Assembly (NCBI GenBank): GCA_963721805.1
Contig: CAVRJY010000001.1
Location: 1,024,001 to 1,088,000, forward strand
DNA length: 64,000 bases
Source: Nitrospirota bacterium
GTDB lineage: Bacteria; Nitrospirota; Thermodesulfovibrionia; Thermodesulfovibrionales; JdFR-86
Reading direction: 5' to 3'
In this document: positions 29,560-61,167 of the stretch, piece after piece
How positions within the stretch are numbered: position 1 is the stretch's first letter
How the letters are laid out: each line of letters opens with the position of its first letter
The notes under the pieces: generated by a model
Seen by the model: the letters and a program-made list of their open reading frames with translations, nothing else
The model's database searches: none
Told to the model about the DNA's origin: nothing
Made by a program: the position numbers and the translations under genes

Positions 29560-31374
29560 CTATCCCTTCAGCTTGTACACGAGCAGCTTCATATCGAATA
29601 TGTTGCGCAGCCGGATCAGGTTGCGAGGGTTGATCATCCAGGTGTTTGAGAGCAGCACGAGTTTGTCGCCCACCAAGACCTGGTCGATCACGGTGCCCGG
29701 GACGTCGTCTATCAGCCTGACCTCGGTCGCGTCCGGCCCGTTGGGGAAGACGCGCATCATCTGCGAGTAATAGTTGACGTTCCGGATCTGAGTGATGAGC
29801 GGCTTGCGCTTGGCCGCGAGCACGGAGTCCATAAACGGGGTCATGCGCACCATCAAGACGGGCTCGAACTGGTTGGTCGTCAGAGGTTTGGGCTCGCTCT
29901 CGATGGGGTGCCCGACGACGTTGTAGTAATCGGCGCTCTGCCACATCTGCAGGCCGTTGGTGTCCTCGAACGAGAGCTTGCCGGCGGTAGTGAAGGTGAA
30001 ATAGACCTTCGTGCCCGCGAGCGAGACCGGATAGACGCTGTAGAGCGTCGCGCCCGCCGGTACGTCGAGCTGGGTCGCGCCCTTGAAGTCCGCGCCCTTC
30101 GTCCAGAGGACCGGGAATATCCCGCCCTTATACCCACCGTTTACCTCGAAGTCCTGCCCGTAGAGGGCGCCGTCCATGACCCTCAGGAAGCACGGGCCGC
30201 TCCAGAGCTGGTTGAACTGTTTGCCGTCATACTTGTAGATATAAGACATGGCCGTATTCTCGCCCATCGCCGAGACGATGAGCTCGTCCCGGCCGTCATG
30301 GTCGAGGTCGGCCGCGTAGAGCCTGAGGTTTATGCCCTTGCCAGGCACCTTGATGGAGGCGCCGTCAAGCGCCGGGGCGAATGCGACGCCGAGGGTGAAG
30401 AAGTCTATCCGCCGCTCCAGGGTCAGGGCGAGCACCTGCTTGCCGTCGCCGCCGAAGTCCCCGGCCGTGACCGAACGGTAGCCGTCAGGGAGCGAGAAGC
30501 TGTATACCGGCAGCTCCTGTTTGGGCATGAACAGCGACTCGCCCACGGCTATCGAGCTTGCGAGCGAGGGGGGCACGGTCTCGCGCGCGGACAGCAGCTG
30601 AGCGCCGTCGTCGGTCCAGAGGATGTGCTCGGTCAGGCCGCTCTGCTCGCCCTTGTTTTCGTAAGAGAGCGCGATAGTGGCCACCGCGCCCAGTTCCTTG
30701 GCCCTCGCGAGCATCTCGGCCTGGTTGCTGATGGACGAGACCGGCACCTCGGCGATATCGAAGCGGTCGGACTCGCGGAGCCTGAAATAGTATTCCTCCG
30801 CGATGCTCCAAGGCACCGAGGGGTCGGGATAGAACAGCACCGGCACCTTGGCCGCAGAGATCCTGATCAGGTCCCCGGCCATAGGCTGGCCCTTCGTGGT
30901 GACGAGGTCAGTCTCGCCGGCGCTGACCGCAGTGACGTCCGCGCTGCCAACCAGCTGCTCGGCAAACCCCATGACCTGCTTCGTGACCGGGTGCAGGAAG
31001 GGCTGGCTCTTGCGGAATATGTCGAGCCTCATGCCGGGCTTGATGCCCGAGGCGGCCGGTATGTTCGCTATGATGTCCTTGCCGCTTATCGAGGTGATCG
31101 TGCCGCCCAGGGGCTTGAACATCGCCACGGCCTCGTTGCGGAGCTTTATGAACGGGTTGTTGGCGTCGCTGACCGCAGGGGCCTTAGGTATGGTAGAGGC
31201 CGGCGGCGCGGTCGAAAACGGCGATGAGATGTCGGGGACCGGCGCGGGCTCGGCGGTCGGCTGGTCGGTAACCGGCGGTAACGGCGAGTATGTCTGCCAG
31301 TCCTTTGCGGCCGAGACGCCGCATATCAGGAACACAAATGTAGCGCATAGAGCAAATATCTTAAGGGTTTTCAT
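29560..31374 (-). CDS. Secreted FG-GAP/VCBS-repeat protein
   Basis: Signal peptide; GDFGGDG and ADLDHDGRDEL repeats; HPVTKQVMG motif. Confidence 0.75.
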   Translation of the reverse strand: MKTLKIFALCATFVFLICGVSAAKDWQTYSPLPPVTDQPTAEPAPVPDISSPFSTAPPASTIPKAPAVSDANNPFIKLRNEAVAMFKPLGGTITSISGKDIIANIPAASGIKPGMRLDIFRKSQPFLHPVTKQVMGFAEQLVGSADVTAVSAGETDLVTTKGQPMAGDLIRISAAKVPVLFYPDPSVPWSIAEEYYFRLRESDRFDIAEVPVSSISNQAEMLARAKELGAVATIALSYENKGEQSGLTEHILWTDDGAQLLSARETVPPSLASSIAVGESLFMPKQELPVYSFSLPDGYRSVTAGDFGGDGKQVLALTLERRIDFFTLGVAFAPALDGASIKVPGKGINLRLYAADLDHDGRDELIVSAMGENTAMSYIYKYDGKQFNQLWSGPCFLRVMDGALYGQDFEVNGGYKGGIFPVLWTKGADFKGATQLDVPAGATLYSVYPVSLAGTKVYFTFTTAGKLSFEDTNGLQMWQSADYYNVVGHPIESEPKPLTTNQFEPVLMVRMTPFMDSVLAAKRKPLITQIRNVNYYSQMMRVFPNGPDATEVRLIDDVPGTVIDQVLVGDKLVLLSNTWMINPRNLIRLRNIFDMKLLVYKLKG

Positions 31375-31442
31375 GTGACGCTCATTATAACATAGGGGCA
31401 ACATTGCTCACCTTCACGATATCTTCAATATTCGAAAGGGTG

Positions 31443-31589
31443 GAAAGCGCGCCAAATCGCGTGATACGTTGTCACGGCTCGCATCCTCGTCCTCAATGTA
31501 CGTCACAGTACACCTCCGGGTGCCACGGGCACCTCTTAAAAAAGGAAAGGGCCAGCCAGCCCTAGTCTGACGCTGATTTCGCGCGCTTT
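31443..31589 (+). repeat. Hairpin element A, copy 1
   Basis: GAAAGCGCGCCAAATCGCGTGATACGTTGTCACGGCT...GTACGTCACAGTACAC...CCTAGTCTGACGC-GATTT-CGCGCTTT; homologous to 35697-35821 (inverted) and 56359-56482. Confidence 0.85.
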
Positions 31590-31600
31590 AAGTTACTCTT

Positions 31601-31654
31601 GCATAATCGTGCGAGCGGTCAACGGCATTGATTTGGAGCGCGCTTTCGGGGGTG
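31601..31654 (+). repeat. Repeat B copy 1
   Basis: ATCGTGCGAGCGGTCAACGGCATTGATTTGGAGCGCGCTTTCGGGGGTG, identical core at 32536-32584. Confidence 0.9.
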
Positions 31655-31691
31655 AAGAGGTCGCGCGCTGCCCCCAATTAGGCAAGGTCTG

Positions 31692-31883
31692 CTATGCAAT
31701 CCCCAATTTCTTTTTCATGTCATCATTTGTCGTCCATTTTTTAGTCTTAGCCTTGACCTCAACAGCGGAGGCGTAATCCTTGCTGTCCTCTTGGGCCTCA
31801 CGGTTGAGTGGTATCTCAAACACCATATCGGGACGATAGAGTTTACCCTGTTCAGCCTTCGAAAAGTCGTATTCCTTCTTCAT
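31692..31883 (-). pseudogene. Chimeric antitoxin remnant (BrnA-like N-terminus + copy of the 33385 antitoxin C-terminus)
   Basis: MKKEYDFSKAEQGKLYRP fused to KDYASAVEVKAKTKKWTTNDDMKKKLGIA, which is identical to the end of 33385-33573. Confidence 0.65.
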
Positions 31884-31905
31884 CTTCCGCCCATAAGGAT
31901 AGGCA

Positions 31906-32238
31906 TCATCCCTTGATGATATCAACTATTGACGATATGACAACACCTAACTTTTCGTCCTTCAAACGCCCGATGCCATAAAGGATGATATGGTTGTCAG
32001 CGGTGAACAGGCGGTTAGGCCGGATATTGCTTGACTGCTTCAATCCGCCCGTGGAGAAATCCTCATCACCAAGGCCGATGGAGTATGAGTCGTTAACTGT
32101 TTTGCTTGTGATCTGGCAGAGTATAAGGTCATCTCCGCCCGGCGTTGCTATGACAAGGGCAGGGCGGCGTTTTGATTGCGTGAGGTCAGAAAATGGAAAT
32201 GGCACGACTACGACATCGCCCTTTACAAACTTACCCAT
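31906..32238 (-). CDS. PemK/MazF-family toxin
   Basis: KGDVVVVPFPFSDLTQSKRRPALV, ILCQITS, GGLKQSSNIRPNRLFT. Confidence 0.9.
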   Translation of the reverse strand: MGKFVKGDVVVVPFPFSDLTQSKRRPALVIATPGGDDLILCQITSKTVNDSYSIGLGDEDFSTGGLKQSSNIRPNRLFTADNHIILYGIGRLKDEKLGVVISSIVDIIKG

Positions 32239-32420
32239 GCCTCGTCCTCTTCGGGCCTAAGCCAATCCTTCTTAAGCGACGACTCGCTGGCCCCTGCGAT
32301 AGCCACGCCTTCCCTGACGACCTTGGCTTTAATGAAATGTACGAAATCCAAGACCTCGTCAAGGTATGGTTCAGGAACCTGCTCGATCTCGTGCATAAGG
32401 GCTTCTTTCTTTCCCATCAC
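32223..32420 (-). CDS. DUF2281-like antitoxin
   Basis: EIEQVPEPYLDEVLDFVHFIK...SESSLKKDWLRPEEDEAW; overlaps toxin start. Confidence 0.85.
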   Translation of the reverse strand: MMGKKEALMHEIEQVPEPYLDEVLDFVHFIKAKVVREGVAIAGASESSLKKDWLRPEEDEAWVSL

Positions 32421-32465
32421 CGCACCTCCTTTGTTCTAATATTATAGCTCATCCTTTCCCTTCCA

Positions 32466-32584
32466 CTATGGCAATCCCGCGCAGACGAGGGAGCCTCCAT
32501 ATTATATCCGAGCAATGGCGGTTTAGGATAATTATATCGTGCGAGCGGTCAACGGCATTGATTTGGAGCGCGCTTTCGGGGGTG
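32466..32584 (+). repeat. Repeat C copy 1 + repeat B copy 2
   Basis: CTATGGCAATC..GCGCAGACGAGGGAGCCTCCATATTATATCCGAGCAATGGCGGTTTAGGATAATTATATCGTGCGAGCGGT, repeated at 33848-33937. Confidence 0.9.
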
Positions 32585-32629
32585 CTATCCTCGACGGCTT
32601 CTGTTATAATTTCGCATGAGGCTACGTAT

Positions 32630-32914
32630 ATGACGTTAGTGGATACTATCAAGCGGGATGCTGAGGCACTCAAAGCCAGGTTTCACCTAAAGCGCATCGG
32701 GATATTCGGCTCGTATGTGCGCGGAGAAGAAACGCCCGAAAGCGATCTCGACATCCTTGTTGAATTCGAGACTGATTATGAGACTTTCAATAATTATACT
32801 GACCTGAAGTTTTACCTCGAAGACCGTTTTGGCAAGAATGTCGATGTCGTTACCGTTGATGCCCTTAAACCACAGCTGCGGGATATTATTTTAAACGAAG
32901 TATCCTATGCCTAG
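32630..32914 (+). CDS. MNT (minimal nucleotidyltransferase) antitoxin
   Basis: [24 protein letters not shown] motif; TG-n-TATAAT at 32602-32610. Confidence 0.9.
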
Positions 32915-33248
32915 ACATTACAAGCTCTACCTTGAGGATATGCTTGTTTCGGCTGAGAGCATACTTGAGTATGTGAGCGGATTATCCAAGGACGCATTGC
33001 TTGCGGATAAAATGAGAGTCGATGCCGTAGTGAGGAACTATGAAATTATTGGCGAAGCAGCAGGCCGTATCCCTCAGGAGATTAGGGAGAAATACCCAAA
33101 GGTTGAGTGGAGGCGGATTACAGACCTTAGGAATATCCTGATACATGAATACTTCGGCATTAATCGCAATATCCTGTGGGATATCACTGCCAATCACCTG
33201 CCCCAGCTTGCAGCAGAGTTGAAGGCCATTGTTCCCAACGAGGGTTAG
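32907..33248 (+). CDS. HEPN/DUF86 toxin
   Basis: [24 protein letters not shown] (Rx4H) motifs. Confidence 0.9.
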
Positions 33249-33347
33249 CGGTCAACGGCATTGATATGGTTCTCGCGCTTTAACGTGGCCTGTGCATAAT
33301 CGTGCGAGCGGTCAACGGCATTGATATGGAGCGCGCTTTCGGGGGGG
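33247..33347 (+). repeat. Repeat B copies 3 and 4 (tandem)
   Basis: AGCGGTCAACGGCATTGATATGG at 33247 and again within GCATAATCGTGCGAGCGGTCAACGGCATTGATATGGAGCGCGCTTTCGGGGGGG (33294-33347). Confidence 0.9.
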
Positions 33348-33384
33348 ACGCGGTCGTGCGCTGCCACCAATTAGGCCGTGGCTG

Positions 33385-33573
33385 TTATGCAATCCCCAAT
33401 TTCTTTTTCATGTCATCATTTGTCGTCCATTTTTTCGTCTTTGCCTTAACCTCGACAGCGGAGGCGTAATCCTTGTTGTCTTCCTCGGCCTCCTTGAGGC
33501 GCTTATACTCCTCGTAATCGAGGATAACCGCGATGGGCTTATTGTTTTCCTTGATGATCTGTGTCTTAATCAC
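33385..33573 (-). CDS. Phd/YefM-like antitoxin
   Basis: IIKENNKPIAVILDYEEYKRL motif; GTG start overlaps the RelE-like stop region. Confidence 0.8.
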   Translation of the reverse strand: MIKTQIIKENNKPIAVILDYEEYKRLKEAEEDNKDYASAVEVKAKTKKWTTNDDMKKKLGIA

Positions 33574-33829
33574 GATACGCCTCCTGTCTGTGCTTGACCT
33601 CATAAACGCTCAATGTGTTCTCCTCGATTCCGAAGATCACCCGATAGTCACCGATACGGAGCCTGAGAAACCCTCCATGTTTGCCTCGAAGGGTTTTAAT
33701 GTCGAAGCCCCCCGAAGGGTTGTCCGCGAATGACTCGATGGTTTTCACGATCCTGGCCGCATCGCTTCGATTGCCCTTCGCCAAGCGTTGCAATTGCTTG
33801 TCCGCATGTTCGGAGTACCGTATTTCCAT
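33566..33829 (-). CDS. RelE/ParE-family toxin
   Basis: YSEHADKQL, DIKTLRG, RLRIGDYRVIF, VKHRQEAY motifs. Confidence 0.9.
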   Translation of the reverse strand: MEIRYSEHADKQLQRLAKGNRSDAARIVKTIESFADNPSGGFDIKTLRGKHGGFLRLRIGDYRVIFGIEENTLSVYEVKHRQEAYRD

Positions 33830-33847
33830 TTTACCCTTTCTACCCCG

Positions 33848-33969
33848 CTATGGCAATCTCGCCTTTGCGCAGACGAGGGAGCCTCCATATTATATCCGAG
33901 CAATGGCGGTTTAGGATAATTATATCGTGCGAGCGGTAAAGGGTATTGACTGGAGTTCTCGCGCTTTCG
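33848..33969 (+). repeat. Repeat C copy 2 + degenerate repeat B copy 5
   Basis: Near-identical to 32466-32550, then diverged GGTAAAGGGTATTGACTGGAGTTCTCGCGCTTTCG. Confidence 0.85.
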
Positions 33970-34422
33970 TTGGTGCCACTGGCATCCCAAAGGAAAAGGC
34001 TGCAATTTCGGTAATGCGTCAATTTAAAGTTTAAGGGTAATCGTACAAGTTTAATAAAGGATTAATAAGAAGAAGCCTACGAGAGAAGCTGACGTGAATA
34101 TGCTTGACGCTGCCATTGCAATGATGCATTGCACAATAACGGTTGATTATGTCCAAAACGTGGACGTTAATAGCAACACCATATTCAATGCAAATGTGAA
34201 ATAGCCCACAGCTATTTATTAATATAATCATATTTTAATAGCGGTAAGGATCGATTTGAGAACCTATCATCCGAGGAAGCAAAAGGTTTCTCATGCAAGT
34301 GCGACGATGTAAATTGGGGGAAATAGCCCTAACGACGCAAGTCTTGTTCAATCAATATAGCCTTGACATGCAAGCCTTCGAAATGTTAAATTTAGGAAGA
34401 AAAATTTTAGGGGGTAATTAGC

Positions 34423-34866
34423 ATGAGCGATAAGGCCGATAAGCTGCTTGACCTGATTAAGCATTACCAGGAAATAATCGACTTATACGAACCCTTGGTA
34501 CTTGAGGCACGCGAGAATTTGAGCACTATTCGTAAGGCTATTGATCTTGTGTTGAGGGATGCTCACCCGACAGACCAAGAGTCACTGTTTGATGATAACG
34601 CCCAAAGAAGTCCCGGTATTGGAAGATACGCCGATAAGACGCTCGCCGAAGCTATCAAAGACATTTTAACTAATAATCCGAGGCCGCTAACGGCCGCTGA
34701 AATTACGCGTCGTGCTATCGATGGAGGCTTTACGAGCAATTCAGCTGATAAACGCCGCGACGTTTCAGTATGTTTAAGTCGGCTTAAAAAACGCAGCGAG
34801 ATCGGATCAGATATGACTGATGAGGGTATGGTTTATAGATTGGCGAAGGGAGGTGAGCAAACTTGA
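34423..34866 (+). CDS. AT-rich hypothetical protein, coiled coil + winged-helix-like C-terminus
   Basis: TLAEAIKDIL....PLTAAEI......GG.......VSVCLSRL pattern; AGGGGG RBS; TTGACA upstream. Confidence 0.65.
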   Translation: MSDKADKLLDLIKHYQEIIDLYEPLVLEARENLSTIRKAIDLVLRDAHPTDQESLFDDNAQRSPGIGRYADKTLAEAIKDILTNNPRPLTAAEITRRAIDGGFTSNSADKRRDVSVCLSRLKKRSEIGSDMTDEGMVYRLAKGGEQT

Positions 34867-35351
34867 GAAGAATTGAAGGGCTGCTAATCGATGGATCGCC
34901 GTTAGCAGTTCCGCTAAAAATGAAGACTCGCTATCTGGTGTAGTTGGCACTGGGCCGGATAGCGAGTCGTTAGGCGATCCCCGCCTTTGGCGGAGGGTAA
35001 AACATTTTCGTGAGGATTAACACTTAAAAGGCTTGATCTTACAAGCTAATTATAGTGCCTTCCTTTGCGCATTGTCAAGCCCAAACTTAAAAACAGGAAA
35101 GGTCCTCCATGACTAAGAAACCTGGCTATAAGCTTGTATTCACAGCCTATATCACCACGCGAAACGGTACGCGGATTTACGCGTATCAACGGGGCCTCAA
35201 GGCTTTCCCAATATGGGTTAAAGACAAGAAGTAAAGGGTGAGTTGATGGTGGGGGGAGAAACATATCCCTCACCATCAACCTCTTTCCACTAACTATAGT
35301 TAGTCGTAAGTTAATAGAAAACGCACGGTTTTGAATTTTTCCTATAACCTT

Positions 35352-35821
35352 CGGTTTATATATAAACCGTAGTATATCGCTTTTTTCATTTAGTTGTGAT
35401 TCAATACAGGATGACTATGATAGGCTCATTTTTGAGGGTGCTGAAAGCAGGGTCGGAGGCCGATGGACAGCGCGAAAAACGTATCCGAACATCCGAACAC
35501 GGGAGAGGTCAAATTATCGATGTTTTTCGTTACCTTGGACTGTTTTTTGTCTGTTCATTCGAACGCAATAAAAAACGCGCGCACGTGCGCGCGCGATATT
35601 CCTAACTATGCCTAAGCGCGAGCATCAGAACATGCTTTTTCCGATCAAGTCTTTGACCGTGAGGCGCGGAGGCAGCGGCTGGGCCGCGCACTTCGCAAAG
35701 CGCGATAAATCGCGTCAGACTAGGAACGGCGAGGAAAACGTCCGCAAGTGTACTGAGACGTACTCTGGAGGACGGATTTCCGAAGCCGTGACAACGTATC
35801 ACGCGACTTTAGCGCGCTTTC
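35352..35821 (-). repeat. Long non-coding element D+B+A, copy 1 (includes hairpin A copy 2 at 35697-35821)
   Basis: Reverse complement aligns block-for-block with 56359-56790. Confidence 0.8.
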
Positions 35822-35855
35822 ACAGAAGCCCCCGTATGCCGTATAATGGTGCCCT

Positions 35856-36944
35856 ATGAAAATCGCGATAACTGGCCTAGCTAATTCAGGTAAGACTACT
35901 ATCTTTAACGCTTTGACGGGCCTCCGGGTCGAGACGACGATCTACCCGACGACCGGCGGCGAGCCGAACCTCGGCATCGTCAAGGTGCCGGACGAGCGCA
36001 TCGACAGGCTCTCGGCGATCTTCAAGCCCAAGAAGACCACGCACTCGACGGTGCAGTACGTGGACTATCTGGGGCTCACGAAGGGCGACATGAAGCAGAA
36101 CCGGAGCGTGTTTGAGTTCGTCAAGGACTCGGATGCGCTAGTGCACGTCGTGCGCGCCTTCGAGGACCCCTCTGTGATGCATCCGCTCGACAGCGTGGAC
36201 GCGGTCAGGGACGTGGCCACGGTCGAGACCGAGCTGCTATTTGGGGACATCGAGCTTATCGACCGCAGGCTTGAGGGCATGGAACTCGGGCTAAAGCGGG
36301 GCAAGAAGCCGAACGAGGACGAGAAGCGCGTGCTCCTGAAGTGCAAGGAGGCCCTCGATGCCGAGCGGCCGCTTCGGGACGTGGAGTTCACGGAGGACGA
36401 GGACAAGGCGGTCAGCCACCTGCAGTTCATGTCCATCCTGCCCGAGACCGTGGTGCTGAACATCGGCGAGGCCGACCTGAACACCGAACGCGCCGCGAAG
36501 CTCCAGGCCGAGGTCGAGGCGTACTACGCCGGGAGGCGCGGGGTGACGGTCGTGACGCTATCGGGGAAGGTCGAGATGGACATCGCGGAGCTCGCGCCTG
36601 ATGAGGCCCGCGCGTTCCTGGACGACCTTGGGATCAAGGAGCCCGCTCTGCACCGGCTCATAAAGCTCTCATACGCCAACGTGGGGCTTATCTCGTTCAT
36701 CACCGCGGGCGAGGACGAGGTGCGCGCATGGGCCTTAAGGAAGGGCACCGACGCCCTGCACGCGGCCGGAAAAATACACTCAGACATACAGCGCGGGTTC
36801 ATACGCGCGGAGGTCGTCTCGTGCGAGGACTTCTTCAGGCTCGGCGGCTTCAGCGAGGCCCGCGACAAGGGGCTGCTCAGGCTTGAGGGCAAGACCTACG
36901 AGGTGAGGGACGGCGACATCATCAACTTCAGGTTCAACGTCTAG
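35856..36944 (+). CDS. ychF: Ribosome-binding ATPase YchF
   Basis: GLANSGKTT, VKVPDERID, AGKIHSDIQRGFIRAEV, LEGKTYEVRDGDIINFRFNV. Confidence 0.95.
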   Translation: MKIAITGLANSGKTTIFNALTGLRVETTIYPTTGGEPNLGIVKVPDERIDRLSAIFKPKKTTHSTVQYVDYLGLTKGDMKQNRSVFEFVKDSDALVHVVRAFEDPSVMHPLDSVDAVRDVATVETELLFGDIELIDRRLEGMELGLKRGKKPNEDEKRVLLKCKEALDAERPLRDVEFTEDEDKAVSHLQFMSILPETVVLNIGEADLNTERAAKLQAEVEAYYAGRRGVTVVTLSGKVEMDIAELAPDEARAFLDDLGIKEPALHRLIKLSYANVGLISFITAGEDEVRAWALRKGTDALHAAGKIHSDIQRGFIRAEVVSCEDFFRLGGFSEARDKGLLRLEGKTYEVRDGDIINFRFNV

Positions 36945-38969: not shown

Positions 38970-39726
38970 GATCGTCGCCCTCGCTGTCCTCGTTTTCATG
39001 CTGGCGGCGGCCTCCGCGTTCGCGGCTGCGATACCGGAGACGCCTCCGGACTATGTCGTTGACCTCGCGGGCGTCATCAACGCCAATACGAAAGCCAGCC
39101 TCGATGGCTACCTAGCCGAGCTTGAGCGCAAGACGAGTGCGCAGGTCATCGTGCTTACGGTCGATACGATAGAGGGACAGGATATCGACGGGTACAGCCT
39201 GCAGGTGGCGGAGCGCTGGAAGCTTGGGCAGAAGGGCAAGGACAACGGCCTCCTGATACTCTTTGCGATGAAGGAGCGCAAGTACCGCTTCGAGGTCGGC
39301 TATGGATTGGAGGGCATCCTGCCTGACAGCGCGGTCGGGAGCATAGGCCGCGAGTACATCGTCCCGGCGTTTCGGCGCGGCGATTACTCGGCCGGGGTAG
39401 CGCAGGCAACGCTGGCCGTAGCGACGATCATAGCCAAGTCCGCCGGGGTCGAGATCACAGGGATGCCCGTGCGCGAGATATCGCGGCAGCAGCAGGTCTC
39501 GGGCAGGCGCGCAGGGCCCGGACAGCTGATCTTCATGGTCTTGATGGGTATCGTCATGCTATATTTGTTCATCCGCCACCCGAGGCTGTTCATACTCATG
39601 CTGCTGATGTCCGGCGGGGGCCGGCGCGGCGGCTGGGGTGACGGCGGGGGCGGCGGCGGGTTTGGAGGCTTCGGCGGCGGAGGCGGTGGAGGCTTCGGCG
39701 GCGGCGGGGCCTCGGGCGGCTGGTAG
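38953..39726 (+). CDS. TPM-domain protein (YgcG-like)
   Basis: VVDLAGVI, WKLGQKGKDNGLLIL, EVGYGLEGILPD, Gly-rich GGASGGW tail. Confidence 0.92.
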   Translation: MTSRYRIVALAVLVFMLAAASAFAAAIPETPPDYVVDLAGVINANTKASLDGYLAELERKTSAQVIVLTVDTIEGQDIDGYSLQVAERWKLGQKGKDNGLLILFAMKERKYRFEVGYGLEGILPDSAVGSIGREYIVPAFRRGDYSAGVAQATLAVATIIAKSAGVEITGMPVREISRQQQVSGRRAGPGQLIFMVLMGIVMLYLFIRHPRLFILMLLMSGGGRRGGWGDGGGGGGFGGFGGGGGGGFGGGGASGGW

Positions 39727-56296: not shown

Positions 56297-56358
56297 AACC
56301 GGTAGAATAACCTTTCCGGGGTATATATTACAAATGGCACGATTTCCATGCATATTTC

Positions 56359-56790
56359 AAAGCGCGCCAAATCGCTTGATACGTCGTTGGGCATCGAAGA
56401 CTCGCCCTCTATGTACGTCACAGTACACCATCGGGCGGTCTTCTTGCCCTGCCTTGTCTGAAGCCGATTTGGACGCGCTTTCGGGGGGCACGGACGACGG
56501 ACGCCCCCCGCGCCCCACAAGGTCAACGGCATGATTGGAGGGCCGGTCATAGGTATAGTTATGCATAACGCGCGCGTGTGCGCGCATTTTTTTAGAGCGT
56601 TCGAATGAACAGAGAAAAAACAGTTTAACCTCGCGGATTTCATCGTTTTTTAACGGCTTTCCGTGTTCGGGTGTTCGGATCTGCTATTCGTGCTCTCAAC
56701 TGGCCTCCAGCCTCGTTTCCGCGTCCTCAAATACGACCATATTGGCCTCATGCCGTATTGAAGCACAAATCAAATGAAAAATCGATAGTA
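56359..56790 (+). repeat. Long non-coding element A+B+D, copy 2 (hairpin A copy 3 at 56359-56482)
   Basis: AAAGCGCGCCAAATCGC...ATGTACGTCACAGTACAC...GATTTGGACGCGCTTTC, then blocks matching the reverse complement of 35375-35660. Confidence 0.8.
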
Positions 56791-56919
56791 ATTAAAAACA
56801 ATGATTTATAAAAAGTTGAGGCCACGAAAATATTTTTAAACAGTAGTTAATTGATAAGCTATCCGAAGTAAATAAATTAATAAATGTGCAAAGAAAGGGT
56901 GCAAAACTGTTAATGAAGC

Positions 56920-57012
56920 CTACGTCTTCTTGACTTCCGCTCCGGTTTTTGCCGATAGATCGGCGATCAACCCTACGTGCACCGACTCGACCTCGTAATC
57001 CATAGGCACGCG
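56920..57012 (-). pseudogene. Displaced pheT 3' end, copy P2
   Basis: Translates EVESVHVGLIADLSAKTGAEVKKT* versus PheT EVETVHAGLIADLSAKTGAEVRKA*. Confidence 0.9.
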
Positions 57013-57048
57013 TATCATCTTTTTGGCGGCCGCATGATATAATTATTA

Positions 57049-57551: not shown

Positions 57552-57709
57552 CTACGCTTTTCTTACTTCCGCTCCAGTTTTGGCCGACAGATCAGCAATC
57601 AACCCCGCGTGCACCGACTCGACCTCGTCGTCCGTGAGCGTGCGTTCTGCAAAGCGGTAGCCGATATTAAACCAAGGCTCTTCCTGACCTGCGGGATGAT
57701 TTATGCCCT
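57552..57709 (-). pseudogene. Displaced pheT 3' end, copy P1
   Basis: Translates ..FNIGYRFAERTLTDDEVESVHAGLIADLSAKTGAEVRKA*; homology decays with indels near 57670-57709. Confidence 0.92.
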
Positions 57710-59115: not shown

Positions 59116-61167
59116 CTACGCTTTCCTGACTTCAGCCCCTGTCTTCGCTGAGAGGTCAGCTATCAACCCCGCGTGCACCGTCTCGACCTCGTCGTCCGTA
59201 AGCGTGCGCTCCGCCGAGCGATACCGGATATTAAACGCGAGGCTCTTCTTGCCCTGCGGGATGTTCTTGCCCTTGTATGAGTCAAAGACGTGCGCTCCAG
59301 CAATAAACTCCGACGGATAGGCGCGTATCATGCGCTCGATATCACCTGCGCGCGCGGTCTCGTCGATCAGAAGCGCGATGTCACGCTCTATCGCCGGATA
59401 GCGCGGGATTGGCGTGTATTTCCTGATGCCCCCAAGCGCGAAGCGCAGCGCGTCGATCTCCAGCTCGAACACGAAGACATCCGAGCGCGCCTTCACGTCA
59501 AACGCAGCGACCACGTCGGGGCGGAGCGCGCCTATAAACCCGGCCCTGCGGGGGTCGATCATCACGTCAGCGGCCTTGCCGGGCTGCAAGAAGGGCTCGA
59601 GCGTCGGCGTGAAATCGACCCCGCCGATCTTCATACCAGCGAGCATACCCTCCAGAGCGCCCTTCATCAGGTAGAACTCTTCGGTCGTATCTTTGTACAG
59701 CGAAGGGACCTTCTCGCGGTACAACAGTCCGCCGATGAGCGGGACCTCGTCCGCCTGTATGCCGCCGTTTTTGTAAAACGCCTTCGCGGTCTCAAAGAGA
59801 CGGATATCGCGCATGCCGCGCGAGAAGTTATGGCTGAACGCGCCTATCAGCGCCGGGACGAGTGTGGTGCGTAAGAGTCCGTCTTCCTGCCTTAGCGGGT
59901 TTTGGATAGGCACGCACTCGCGCCGGCGGTCATTGGCCGCGAGCCTCAGCAGATCGAGGTGCGCCGGGTTTAAAAAGCTCAGCGTGATCTGCTCGCTGAA
60001 GCCCTCCTTGCGAAGCAGGGTCTTAACGTCCGAGATAAACGCGCGCTCCGTGAGGTCGGCCTCGGACGCAATGCTCGTCATCGGCATCGCGGAGGGGATG
60101 TTGTTATACCCGTAGAGCCGCGCGACCTCCTCGATCACGTCCGCGTCCATCGTGATATCCGGCCTCGACGAGGGCGGGACGACCTCGAAGCTCTCGCCCA
60201 TTGCCTTAACGCTGTCAGCGACCTTATTAACTATCGCGACGATCTCGTCGTCAGTGAGTTTTATCCCGAGCATCCGGTTGACCTTCTCGAACTTGACGTT
60301 GATCTTAAGCGGCTCGTACTTGGCTGGGTATGCATCGACGAGCGCCCCGGCCATGCCCCCTGCGGTCCCGATGATCAGGCGCGTCACGCGGTCGAGCGCC
60401 GTGGCGACTATCTGTATGTCCGTGCCGCGCTCAAATCTGTATGACGACTCGGTCTTTAGCCCGAGGGCCTTGGAGGTCTTTCTTACGGATTCCGGCCTGA
60501 ACCATGCGCTTTCGATGAACAGGTCGGTCGTCTCTTGGCGGACCTCGCTGTTTAGGCCGCCCATCACGCCCGCGACCGCCACCGGCCGCTCCGCGTCCCA
60601 TATCAGGAGGCTGTCTTCGGGGATCGCGCGCTCGACCTTATCGAGCGTGGCCATCTTGAGTCCGGCCCCCGCGCGGGCAACGCGGATCTTCTGGCCCTTG
60701 AGGTACGCGAGGTCAAACGCGTGCAGCGGGTGGCCGAACTCTAAAAGCACATAGTTGGTGCAGTCCACGACGTTGTTGATCGGCCTGATGCCGCAGATCT
60801 CAAGCCTCTGGCGCATCCACTCGGGGGATTCGCCGATAGTGACGCCGTGTATCACGCGCCCGGTGTATCTGGCGCAGAGGTCGGGGTCGGCTATCTCGAT
60901 TGGGAAGCTTTCATCGCTCTGCTCGGCGACCGCGTGCTCCGGCATCGTGATTGCCGCGCCAGTCAGCGCGTGCACCTCGCGGGCGATTCCCAGTATGCTC
61001 AGGCAGTCAGGGCGGTTCGGGGTGACGTTGACTTCTATCGCCAGATCATCGCCAACCCGCTCCATGCCCTCGACCTCCAGCCCGGCCATCGTGAGGCGCG
61101 CGTCGAGCTCCTCGGGCGTGAGCCCTGCGTCGATGAGTTCCCTCAGCCAGTTATACGATATGCGCAT
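59116..61167 (-). CDS. pheT: Phenylalanine-tRNA ligase beta subunit (short form, no B2 tRNA-binding domain)
   Basis: ISYNWL, VTPNRPDCLS, RPINNVVD.TNYV, SYRFERG, RDIA, KKSLA, RTLTD motifs. Confidence 0.96.
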   Translation of the reverse strand: MRISYNWLRELIDAGLTPEELDARLTMAGLEVEGMERVGDDLAIEVNVTPNRPDCLSILGIAREVHALTGAAITMPEHAVAEQSDESFPIEIADPDLCARYTGRVIHGVTIGESPEWMRQRLEICGIRPINNVVDCTNYVLLEFGHPLHAFDLAYLKGQKIRVARAGAGLKMATLDKVERAIPEDSLLIWDAERPVAVAGVMGGLNSEVRQETTDLFIESAWFRPESVRKTSKALGLKTESSYRFERGTDIQIVATALDRVTRLIIGTAGGMAGALVDAYPAKYEPLKINVKFEKVNRMLGIKLTDDEIVAIVNKVADSVKAMGESFEVVPPSSRPDITMDADVIEEVARLYGYNNIPSAMPMTSIASEADLTERAFISDVKTLLRKEGFSEQITLSFLNPAHLDLLRLAANDRRRECVPIQNPLRQEDGLLRTTLVPALIGAFSHNFSRGMRDIRLFETAKAFYKNGGIQADEVPLIGGLLYREKVPSLYKDTTEEFYLMKGALEGMLAGMKIGGVDFTPTLEPFLQPGKAADVMIDPRRAGFIGALRPDVVAAFDVKARSDVFVFELEIDALRFALGGIRKYTPIPRYPAIERDIALLIDETARAGDIERMIRAYPSEFIAGAHVFDSYKGKNIPQGKKSLAFNIRYRSAERTLTDDEVETVHAGLIADLSAKTGAEVRKA

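What the first reader, a model, noticed from the sequence alone, without database searches (positions are those of the whole stretch)
35352..35821. ~430-470 bp non-coding element present twice, each time upstream of a translation-factor NTPase gene (ychF, typA)
Seen: the reverse complement of this region aligns with 56359-56790. It contains hairpin A, a B-like GGTCAA..TGAT block, AGGYATAGTTA, GCGTTCGAATGAACAGAnAAAAAACAGT (27/28 identical; 35539-35566 vs 56597-56624), CCGTGTTCGGnTGTTCGGAT (19/20; 35483-35502 vs 56661-56680) and GTATTGAAnCACAA..AAATGAAAAA..CGATA. Block spacing is kept (64/64 and 95/94 nt) while the linkers diverge, and no reading frame is conserved. In both copies the hairpin end faces the 5' end of a housekeeping gene and the AT-rich end faces variable TA-containing DNA. 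Inference: an undescribed large ncRNA/leader, or a multi-protein DNA site such as a recombination hub or non-autonomous element end.
Basis: partly seen in the sequence, partly recalled or inferred. Interest (0 to 1): 0.8.

Follow-up and report, generated by a model that had tools for sequence, protein, structure and literature searches.

The report
Repeat arm flanking accessory gene islets
This stretch is one of about thirty long copies of an abundant folded repeat that, in inverted pairs, brackets some sixty small islands of acquired toxin-antitoxin and defence genes in a Nitrospirota-like bacterium, so it is not a private control region of the two neighbouring translation-factor genes.

Summary
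"Present twice" is wrong. The genome holds 241 matches (~44 kb), 30 of them full length (534 nt).

The element has three modules:
- A: a 120-nt rod hairpin with compensatory changes. A covariance model finds it in other Nitrospirota families.
- H: a GC hairpin ending in GGTCAACGGCATTGAT.
- X: ~350 nt with phased ATCCGAACA iterons, a 26-bp palindrome and a one-way terminator. It was found only in this genome.

Genome-wide, 66 inverted pairs with A ends outward enclose 0-6 kb of low-GC DNA (mean GC 0.46 against 0.62). This DNA carries toxin-antitoxin, restriction and defence genes. X sits on at most one arm.

Genes next to full-length copies are diverse, so the ychF/typA link is coincidence.

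There is no Rfam match, no target-site duplication and no cognate recombinase. The three literature searches listed no paper describing it.

Best reading: the X-bearing arm of a repeat-bracketed cargo islet, that is, a non-autonomous element end or recombination site. The enzyme, and which strand folds, are unresolved. Earlier notes of this scan describe the same system in other windows of this genome.

The parts
35288..35822 (+). Copy A, full-length element (modules X-H-A read left to right; the A or 'constant' end is at 35822, facing ychF)
   Evidence: nhmmer model positions 1-534 (where it is C1:1059288-1059822); alignment to copy B
35695..35822 (-). Module A of copy A: ~125-nt rod hairpin
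   Evidence: Covariance model R1, 124.2 bits on the - strand against 38.7 on +; fold -49.2 kcal/mol, z -3.7
35643..35700 (-). Module H of copy A: GC hairpin plus tail motif (GGTCAAAGACTTGATC on the - strand)
   Evidence: Read; tail-motif census
35288..35642 (+). Module X of copy A. Distal end CACTAACTATAGTTAG; palindrome CTTCGGTTTATATATAAACCGTAG at 35349-35372; tandem iteron ATCCGAACATCCGAACA at 35483-35499; further iteron-like sites
   Evidence: Consensus of 30 copies; palindrome lies inside X in 31 of 31 genome occurrences; iteron offsets; boundary
35576..35595 (-). Terminator-like GC hairpin followed by TTTTTTATT. It reads from the A arm towards the cargo.
   Evidence: The same feature is at 56570-56585 (+) in copy B and in L119 and L110: 4 of 4 loci scanned.
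56357..56915 (-). Copy B (modules X-H-A on the - strand). A is 56357-56483, H plus tail to ~56545, X beyond. The nhmmer match covers model 45-534 (56359-56837), and the distal ~80 nt have diverged.
   Evidence: R1 149.7 bits on +
31442..31632 (+). Left arm of the islet that ends in copy A. It consists of module A with an internal insertion, the 'L' unit (..TGCATAATCGTGCGAGC) and the tail GGTCAACGGCATTGAT. It is inverted relative to copy A, and its A end faces the start of the FG-GAP gene (29560-31373, -).
   Evidence: D6, I4; 67.3 bits
31633..35287 (.). Cargo islet between the two arms, GC 0.40-0.52. It holds an antitoxin-like gene and MazF (31906-32420, -), MNT/HepT (32620-33248, +), Phd/ParE (33385-33829, -), a HARE-HTH-like ORF (34423-34866) and small ORFs. 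Internal junctions GGTCAACGGCATTGAT|WTGG..CGCGCTTT follow the tails at 31617, 32547, 33250 and 33310.
35819..35847 (+). ychF's own promoter-like site TTCACA-17-TATAAT (11 of 12). It overlaps the element's last bases, and its TATAAT lies 8 nt before the ATG.
   Evidence: sequence
56920..57040 (-). Diverged duplicate of the 3' end of pheT. Its stop codon lies 4 nt from the distal end of copy B's X. A second duplicate is at 57552-57672; the real pheT end is at 59116-59236.
   Evidence: family D1: 68%, reference, 83%

Best explanation
The region is the X-bearing arm of a repeat-bracketed accessory-gene islet. It belongs to a modular, non-coding, dispersed repeat family.

The modules:
- Module A is a ~120-nt rod hairpin kept by compensatory changes.
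- Module H is a GC hairpin with a variable loop and the conserved tail GGTCAACGGCATTGAT.
- Module X (~350 nt) adds phased ATCCGAACA sites, a 26-bp palindrome with an AT centre, a second palindrome at its tip, and a terminator that stops transcription running from the arm into the cargo.

How the arms sit: two arms lie inverted with their A ends outward, against core genes. Their tails face inward, towards 0.2-6 kb of low-GC cargo carrying toxin-antitoxin, restriction and defence genes.

Shown here: the anatomy, the copy numbers, the bracketing, the fold conservation, and the absence of target duplications.

Inferred:
- The arms are ends or docking sites at which cargo is inserted or exchanged by a TSD-less mechanism (site-specific or single-strand/HUH-type recombination) supplied in trans.
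- X is a multi-site protein-binding scaffold.
- Its position before ychF and typA is incidental.
For: - Copy number and nested forms sharing one end.
- Sharp ends with a pyrimidine-rich outer flank.
- A fold: z -8.35 and -3.7.
- Compensatory changes within this genome: 11 of 25 predicted pairs show double changes in 48 copies.
- Compensatory changes in other genomes: 17 of 25 pairs show double changes, 91% of cells are paired against 44-54% when slid, and 0 of 500 shuffles reach this. This was measured on 15 matches. That alignment is fitted to the model.
- Bracketing by pairs: 73 adjacent '><' pairs, 66 with a gap of 6 kb or less. For the 57 with a gap of 200 nt or more, enclosed GC is 0.46-0.50. 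Other pair types give 0.56-0.63 (one '<>' gap under 1 kb: 0.45)..
- Partner arms: 22 of 30 full-length copies have an inverted short arm 0.25-5.6 kb away on the X side.
- GC on the two sides: the first 500 nt on the X side has GC 0.50 or less in 15 of 30 copies; the A side in 0 of 30.
- Cargo families: 13 of 30 loci carry a TA, R-M or defence-type family within 3.2 kb.
- X is on at most one arm: SS 26, SF/FS 26, SM/MS 14, FF 0.
- Iterons lie at fixed offsets of 33, 8, 66 and 68 nt. The palindrome occurs only in X.
- No TSD.
- ISs use the repeats as targets.
Against: - No movement was seen. There is no empty or filled polymorphism and no junction read (one search was uninformative).
- The closest A copies are 99.2% identical at best, with a median nearest neighbour of 96%, whereas true ISs here are 100% identical.
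- No cognate enzyme was found. There is no IntI, IS110, reverse transcriptase or TnpB. The Y2/IS91 search had a silent control.
- The only Y1 transposase belongs to a 602-bp IS whose end hairpins differ from A and H.
- The ~185-nt form sits 0-20 nt after stop codons in 74 of 116 cases. An RNA role would explain this as well.
- In the few loci of other genomes that I looked at, the DNA between or beside A copies was not clearly low in GC.
- The assembly is 94% complete, so an enzyme gene could be missing.
Confidence: 0.6

Rival explanations
1. Module A (with H) works as RNA in the 3' untranslated region of the gene it follows, as a REP-like stabiliser, terminator or translation brake. Islets merely accumulate at such sites, and the long X form is a passenger.
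For: - The constant end lies next to a gene's stop in 89 of 116 of the ~185-nt copies, 74 of them within 0-20 nt. Some genes use the element's TGA.
- Strong covariation.
- G-U pairs outnumber A-C on that strand in the predicted pairs, 41 to 9, although 24 of the 41 come from one column.
- The family is conserved across Nitrospirota families.
Against: - Minimum free energy favours the opposite strand in 166 of 184 copies (mean -56.1 against -51.1 kcal/mol).
- Full-length arms mostly face gene starts, so no gene reads into them (26 of 35).
- This reading does not explain the inverted pairing around low-GC DNA or X.
- No RNA data exist.
Confidence: 0.2
2. The X arm is a portable outward-reading unit. 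A weak or leaderless promoter in X drives a translated, sequence-unconstrained open frame through H and A up to the start of the adjacent core gene. This keeps the gene expressed after an islet has cut it off from upstream DNA.
For: - The constant end faces a gene start in 26 of 35 long copies.
- An ATG-started frame of 100 or more codons is present in 26 of 30 copies.
- The stop-free run exceeds the 95th percentile of each copy's own dinucleotide shuffles in 25 of 30 copies on this strand, against 8 of 30 on the other.
- The frame ends 2-93 nt beyond the element in most copies. It overlaps ychF's ATG as ATGA in copy A and runs into the next gene in L110 and L119.
- TATAGT lies 6 nt before the ATG, as TATAAT lies 8-9 nt before the ATG of ychF and of the FG-GAP gene.
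- The X terminator blocks only the opposite direction.
Against: - The consensus scan finds no sigma-70-type site at that place in L119 or L110.
- ychF has its own promoter downstream of the element.
- The copies are related, so open frames are not independent.
- No expression data exist.
Confidence: 0.12
3. The element encodes a small arginine-rich protein of 125-160 residues.
For: Long open frame with a shared start (MS.I.SYLMG) in most copies.
Against: - Variability is flat over codon positions: 0.32/0.33/0.36, 0.36/0.34/0.36 and 0.36/0.37/0.36.
- The share of synonymous differences is hardly above that of the shifted frames.
- The frame is broken in copies A and B.
- Its distal half is the translation of the A hairpin, which occurs about 200 times without any start.
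Confidence: 0.05
4. A dedicated leader or large ncRNA regulating translation-factor NTPase genes.
For: ychF, typA and one ABC-F gene follow long copies. The region is structured.
Against: - Only 3 of 22 downstream genes are of that kind. The others include isocitrate/isopropylmalate dehydrogenase, GroES, MscL, transaldolase and transglycosylases.
- There are hundreds of copies elsewhere.
- No Rfam family matches.
Confidence: 0.03

Closest known systems
dif (pdif) modules of Acinetobacter plasmids
   Same: Accessory modules, often toxin-antitoxin pairs, are bounded by inversely oriented recombination sites and carry no recombinase of their own. ISs target the sites. (Abstracts of PMC6449649, PMC13141974 and PMC10132070, seen in the listing.)
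   Different: Those sites are 28-bp XerC/XerD sites on plasmids. Here the arms are 120-535-nt structured repeats spread over a chromosome. No dif-like site was shown, and the X palindrome has no copy outside X. XerC and XerD genes exist, but no link to them was tested.
REP/BIME and REPIN elements with RAYT transposases (recalled; no paper read here)
   Same: Abundant intergenic hairpin-forming repeats near gene 3' ends, inverted doublets, hot spots for IS insertion, no target duplication.
   Different: REP units are far shorter. No RAYT was found: the 6 PF01797 matches are one 602-bp IS200-type IS with different hairpins. REPINs do not bracket cargo, and there is no equivalent of X.
Composite units bounded by two non-autonomous repeats (TIME-COMPs, mobile insertion cassettes)
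   Same: Two inverted miniature elements enclose passenger genes without a transposase. (Abstract of PMC13367494 and listing.)
   Different: Those have short terminal inverted repeats of a known parent transposon and make target duplications. Here there is no duplication around 120 single elements or 55 units, no parent element, and arms kept as hairpins with compensatory changes.
Integron cassette arrays (attC sites, IntI)
   Same: A gene is followed directly by a long imperfect hairpin site. TA cassettes are present. The islet in the window has a repeated cassette-like junction.
   Different: No integron integrase: the best TIGR02249 score is 126.5 against a cut-off of 265. No R/L-box core was recognised. 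The sites are dispersed rather than in one array, and only 10 of 176 tail motifs are followed by the junction motif.
IS200/IS605-derived palindrome-associated elements (recalled)
   Same: Hairpin ends, no target duplication, a conserved short flank on one side, and the tail ends in TTGAT.
   Different: The resident TnpA's own ends carry a different hairpin. No TnpB is present. Strand specificity is unresolved.

Membership tests
Any Rfam family | Match to a curated covariance model | tested here: not met
   Gathering threshold on the whole window: 2 tRNAs only. E up to 1 on 4 full-length loci (21.3 kb): one chance miRNA match, E 0.16.
MITE / composite of MITEs | Target-site duplication flanking the element | tested here: not met
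   120 short elements, k=2-5 at 48 offset pairs: none above control. Longest common flank substring equals the control. 55 of 66 bracketed units: same result.
MITE / composite of MITEs | Terminal inverted repeats shared with an autonomous element that encodes the transposase | tested here: not met
   Multi-copy genes are IS481 (10 copies), IS30 (6) and IS200 (6). Their ends are not the repeat. The IS200 ends are shown.
REP/REPIN-RAYT | A single-copy RAYT (Y1 HUH) gene flanked by the repeats | tested here: not met
   PF01797: 6 matches, all the same 602-bp IS at 100% identity. The genome is 94% complete.
REP/REPIN-RAYT | Hairpin-forming repeats occurring as inverted doublets in intergenic DNA | tested here: met
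   8 '><' pairs have a gap under 50 nt.
Integron | IntI integrase next to attI and a cassette array | tested here: not met
   7 tyrosine recombinases, none reaching the integron-integrase cut-offs, and none within 2.8 kb of a repeat.
dif/Xer modules | 28-bp XerC-spacer-XerD sites in inverse orientation around modules | tested here: inconclusive
   Inverse bracketing is met and XerC/XerD genes are present. No dif site of this genome was identified, and binding was not tested.
IS200/IS605-type non-autonomous element | Subterminal hairpins matching those bound by a resident TnpA; insertion 3' of a fixed short target | tested here: inconclusive
   The flank before the A end is T-rich (56-70% T at -6 to -2). 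The resident IS hairpin CCCCGTGGCTTGCCACGGGG differs from A and H.
Protein-coding gene | Excess of third-position and synonymous change | tested here: not met
   (18 copies with the shared start).

The most novel reading that the evidence does not exclude
The arms and module X define an undescribed way of docking and exchanging accessory genes on a chromosome. Structured A hairpins, conserved across Nitrospirota families, mark the sites. The tail and X assemble host or still-unknown proteins that insert or swap cargo without target duplication and without an element-encoded enzyme. X also acts as a one-way transcriptional valve, whose open frame lets ribosomes read out towards the core gene.
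Probability: 0.25. Interest if true: 0.85.

Novelty: new variant of a known kind. Interest (0 to 1): 0.6.

Why it matters
About 4% of this 2.8-Mb genome (106 kb in 66 units) consists of small defence and toxin-antitoxin islets. Each is framed by the same folded repeat, and no enzyme is in sight. If the arms are recombination sites, this is a chromosomal, integrase-less counterpart of integron cassettes or plasmid dif modules in a poorly studied phylum. It would give a sequence handle (models of A, the tail and X) for finding acquired genes and their exchange points in metagenome-assembled genomes. If instead A acts as RNA, it is a large uncatalogued structured family. For the finding itself, the practical result is that it should not be read as a ychF/typA regulator.

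Tried and rejected
- Rfam, at gathering threshold and at E up to 1: nothing.
- BLAST of the 187-nt A+H part in 40 relatives: 0 of 40. The covariance model later found A in 3 of 10 genomes of the same family and in 16 of 150 others of the phylum sample.
- X in other genomes. The tandem-iteron pattern occurs 33 times in this genome. Among 400 other genomes of the phylum it gave 4 single one-mismatch hits, and the backward control gave 2. The iteron-spacing pattern in metagenome contigs gave 0. Records near this genome may be left out there.
- Enzyme hunt. No TnpB, IS110, reverse transcriptase or IntI. Y2/IS91 gave no match, but its control was silent too. One serine recombinase at C2:319522 was not followed up.
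- Target duplications: none.
- Synteny of the ychF neighbourhood in 7 distant relatives: only ychF is shared, so no empty site could be read.
- Bracketing in other genomes: 13 loci were inspected and no clear low-GC pattern was seen. There were too few loci to decide.
- Sequencing runs: no RNA holder is listed. Contigs of the one DNA holder are short and bridge nothing. The only joints are between the inverted arms.
- Promoter scan inside X of L119 and L110: no sigma-70-type site.
- RNAalifold on a global alignment of all 184 A copies gave a poor structure, so a cleaner set of 48 was used.
- A permissive search for head-to-head tails returned mostly noise. Only a few true dimers, such as C5:25190 and C5:48818, could be read from it.
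- Literature: three searches listed no paper on such repeats in Nitrospirota. I saw listings and abstract starts only; no paper was read in full.

Full report
THE OBSERVATION

I read both regions and aligned them. Copy A (+ strand) and the reverse complement of copy B share 78% of columns over about 500 nt. ychF and typA are correctly identified. A third, partial copy of the 'hairpin A' end lies at 31442-31632, inverted relative to copy A and directly upstream of an FG-GAP gene. Rfam gives nothing but two tRNAs in the window and nothing on four full-length loci at E up to 1.

NOT TWO COPIES BUT A FAMILY

The window is C1:1024001-1088000 of a 2.78-Mb, 9-contig, ~60% GC genome that is 94% complete.

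- blastn of the two copies against it gives 361 HSPs in 226 loci, 44 kb.
- An iterated nhmmer profile gives 241 hits.
- 216 of these end at the same model position, the 'constant end', which is the hairpin-A end.
- Their starts fall into classes: 33 at model 1-10 (534 nt), 111 at 340-359 (~185 nt), and 16 at 400-419 (~125 nt).
- Thirty copies are full length. Copy A is 35288-35822.
- Copy B matches model 45-534, and its tip has diverged.

The organism's YchF is closest (72%) to MAGs labelled Nitrospirae/Thermodesulfovibrionales.

ANATOMY

I read the element from the constant end, that is, on the strand opposite to copy A's + strand.

Module A
- It begins T(G/C)AAAGCGC and ends ..GTCTGAAGACGATTTGGGCGCGCTTT.
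- It folds into one long rod: -63.8 kcal/mol, z -8.35 for copy B, and -49.2, z -3.7 for copy A.
- Two sequence subfamilies keep the same helices through double changes, for example AAGACTCGCCC/GGGCGGTCTT against GGAAATCCGTCC/GGACGTTTTCC.
- I found 56 distinct A modules in 41 stored sources. I aligned 48 of them, dropping 7 with an insertion in the 3' arm and the window's own left arm.
- RNAalifold predicts 25 pairs on this alignment, 11 with compensatory double changes.

Module H
- It is a GC hairpin (CGGGGGG-variable loop-CCCCCCG) followed by the tail GGTCAACGGCATTGAT.
- Of 176 tail motifs found at up to 3 mismatches, 84 follow the hairpin, 48 follow an alternative 'L' unit ending GTGCGAGC, and 44 follow neither.

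Module X (~350 nt)
- It continues from the tail with a terminator-like GC hairpin plus T run, which reads from the arm towards the cargo. This was seen in 4 of 4 loci scanned.
- It has ATCCGAACA sites at fixed offsets from the palindrome: one inverted at 109, then direct at 142, 150, 216 and 284 in most copies.
- It has a palindrome AACTTCGGTT-TATATA-AACCGAAGTT. All 31 genome occurrences at up to 5 mismatches lie in X.
- Its tip is sharply defined: CAYTAACYATAGTTAATCG.AAGTTAATAGAAAACGCACG.

CONTEXT

These counts use my own crude gene calls.

- The ~185-nt form has its constant end against a gene's stop in 89 of 116 cases (20 against a start, 7 far). In 74 cases it is within 0-20 nt, and some genes end in the element's TGA.
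- Full-length copies instead face a gene start: 23 of 28, or 26 of 35 when copies with model start up to 120 are included.
- The genes behind them are diverse. Of 20 scanned, 16 have Pfam hits. These include two lytic transglycosylases, isocitrate/isopropylmalate dehydrogenase, a response regulator, GDP-mannose dehydratase, alanine dehydrogenase, GroES, MscL, an EPSP-synthase-family enzyme and transaldolase. Only one is an ABC-F protein.
- So the ychF/typA pairing is chance.
- ychF has its own promoter-like site overlapping the element's end.

ISLETS

Beyond the tip of X the DNA is foreign-looking.
- GC in the first 500 nt is 0.50 or less in 15 of 30 copies. On the constant side this holds for 0 of 30.
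- Of 142 ORFs within 3.2 kb, Pfam names MNT/HepT (three loci), ParE/Phd, HicA (two), Gp49/HTH, DUF2283/DUF4258, DUF2442, KAP NTPase, SIR2-like, MmeI, NgoMIV plus Vsr, HNH and DUF559. Such families are present in 13 of 30 loci.
- The only transposase-type family among them is the IS200-type Y1 transposase, in 3 loci.
- For 22 of 30 full-length copies, the nearest repeat on that side is an oppositely oriented short copy 0.25-5.6 kb away.

Genome-wide, I compared adjacent repeat pairs.
- There are 73 adjacent pairs with constant ends outward ('><'). 66 of them have gaps of 6 kb or less: 8 under 50 nt, 2 of 50-300, 15 of 300-1000, 31 of 1-3 kb and 10 of 3-6 kb.
- The 72 '<>' pairs mostly enclose more than 3 kb.
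- DNA enclosed by '><' pairs has mean GC of 0.46, 0.46 and 0.50 in the three size classes (n = 16, 31, 10).
- Other arrangements give 0.56-0.63, apart from one '<>' gap under 1 kb at 0.45.
- Together the 66 units enclose 105,654 bases.
- Arm types are short/short 26, short/full 26 and short/intermediate 14. No unit has two full arms.

In the window, the left arm (31442-31632), the cargo (31633-35287) and copy A form such a unit. Its cargo is subdivided by four further tail motifs, each followed by WTGG..CGCGCTTT. That junction is rare elsewhere: 10 of 176 tails.

Copy B has no partner arm. Instead, the tip of its X abuts a diverged duplicate of the 3' end of pheT. A second duplicate lies 630 nt further on, before the real pheT end.

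MECHANISM: WHAT IS AND IS NOT SHOWN

- There is no target duplication. This holds for 120 single short elements and for 55 of 66 units tested.
- The outer flank of the constant end is T-rich: 56-70% T at -6 to -2. The flank before the tip of X is pyrimidine-rich.
- Recombinase inventory: XerD, XerC and five other tyrosine recombinases are present. None is an integron integrase and none lies within 2.8 kb of a repeat. There is also one serine recombinase.
- ISs present: IS481-type ×10, IS30-type ×6 and an IS200-type 602-bp IS ×6 at 100% identity.
- No TnpB, IS110 or reverse transcriptase was found. The IS91 search is uninformative.
- The IS200-type ends carry a hairpin unlike A or H.
- The repeats are IS targets. 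Two of 6 IS200-type copies sit at the same place near the tip of X. IS30-type copies are embedded in A in 2 of 2 loci checked.
- A copies are old. Median nearest-neighbour identity is 96%, the maximum is 99.2%, and the all-pair median is 81%.
- I therefore infer, but have not shown, a TSD-less recombination or transposition process supplied in trans, with X as a multi-site protein scaffold.

WHICH STRAND FOLDS IS UNRESOLVED

- In the predicted pairs, G-U outnumbers A-C on the strand read from the constant end, 41 to 9, with 24 of the 41 from one column.
- The model scores far higher on that strand, though it was built on it.
- Yet the complementary strand has the lower minimum free energy in 166 of 184 copies.

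OPEN FRAME

- On copy A's + orientation, 26 of 30 full-length copies carry an ATG-started frame of 100 or more codons. It begins in X and runs through H and A into the flank.
- Stop-free runs exceed each copy's own shuffles in 25 of 30 copies, against 8 of 30 on the other strand.
- Variability is flat across codon positions, so I do not read it as a conserved protein.
- It may reflect translation through the arm (see the rival explanations) or shared ancestry.

DISTRIBUTION

- BLAST finds the A+H part in 0 of 40 relatives.
- Covariance model R1 finds A in 3 of 10 other genomes of the family.
- It also finds A in 16 of 150 other genomes sampled from the phylum, including 10 of 11 in one family.
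- On 15 such matches, 17 of 25 pairs show double changes. 91% of cells pair, against 44-54% for slid controls. That alignment is fitted to the model.
- X was not found outside this genome.

COMPARISON WITH KNOWN SYSTEMS AND EARLIER NOTES

- The system works most like dif modules, MITE-bounded composites, REP/REPIN doublets and integron cassettes. It fails a defining feature of each one tested (see the membership tests).
- Three literature searches listed no description of it. I saw listings and abstract starts only.
- Earlier notes of this scan on other windows of the same genome describe the same arms, islets, head-to-head dimers and module X.
- My census was made independently and agrees with them, with two exceptions. 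I found no general flanking duplication, and the strand evidence is mixed.

VERDICT

The sequence similarity is real. The 'two-copy leader of NTPase genes' reading is wrong. The 'non-autonomous element end or recombination hub' reading is the best supported, within a larger and so far undescribed repeat-and-islet system.

Noticed in passing
window 56920-57040, 57552-57672, 59116-59236: The last ~120 nt of pheT occur three times (68%, reference, 83% identity). The two extra copies lie inside the islet next to copy B. The outermost one ends 4 nt from the tip of X. This looks like repeated Campbell-type or site-specific insertion at the pheT end.
   Followed up: partly
G000 C1:42213-42814 and five other places (L001-L006): A 602-bp IS200-type IS (144-aa Y1 transposase) is present 6 times at 100% identity. 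Both ends carry the hairpin CCCCGTGGCTTGCCACGGGG. Two of the six copies are inserted at the same position near the tip of module X.
   Followed up: partly
L008, L009 (G000 C1:386360-389340, 648323-651303): IS30-family IS (326-aa transposase, 6 copies). In both loci checked it lies between a near-complete A module and a 70-nt A fragment, so it appears to target a fixed place in A near the conserved CCTWGTCTGA loop.
   Followed up: partly
window 35843-35858 and 31373-31392: TATAAT lies 8-9 nt before the ATG of ychF and of the FG-GAP gene, with no visible ribosome-binding site. This suggests leaderless mRNAs in this organism.
   Followed up: no
full-length copies, e.g. L110:4600-5331, L119:4599-5147: A stop-free frame of ~100-160 codons runs from X through H and A into the flank in most copies. 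It has no codon-position signature. In L110 it fuses in frame with the alanine dehydrogenase gene.
   Followed up: partly
several loci of G000 seen (flanks after the tail motif): A second short repeat follows some tails: tandem units of GAATAG plus a GC hairpin (for example GGGGCCAGTCGGCCCC or GGTGCCCGTGGCACC). The same hairpins also occur as variable loops of module H.
   Followed up: no
window 31573-31632 and 33267-33326: Two 'empty' 55-60-nt units, (GCGC)TTTAA..TGCATAATCGTGCGAGCGGTCAACGGCATTGAT, lie between TA cassettes, as if cargo had been lost or never inserted.
   Followed up: no
184 A modules of G000: The strand complementary to the one read from the constant end folds more stably in 166 of 184 copies. 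G-U against A-C counts in the predicted pairs point the other way.
   Followed up: partly
window 39614-39708: Overlapping GC-rich 12/24-nt periodic repeat (GGCGGCGG.. units) inside an ORF, probably a glycine-rich coding repeat.
   Followed up: no
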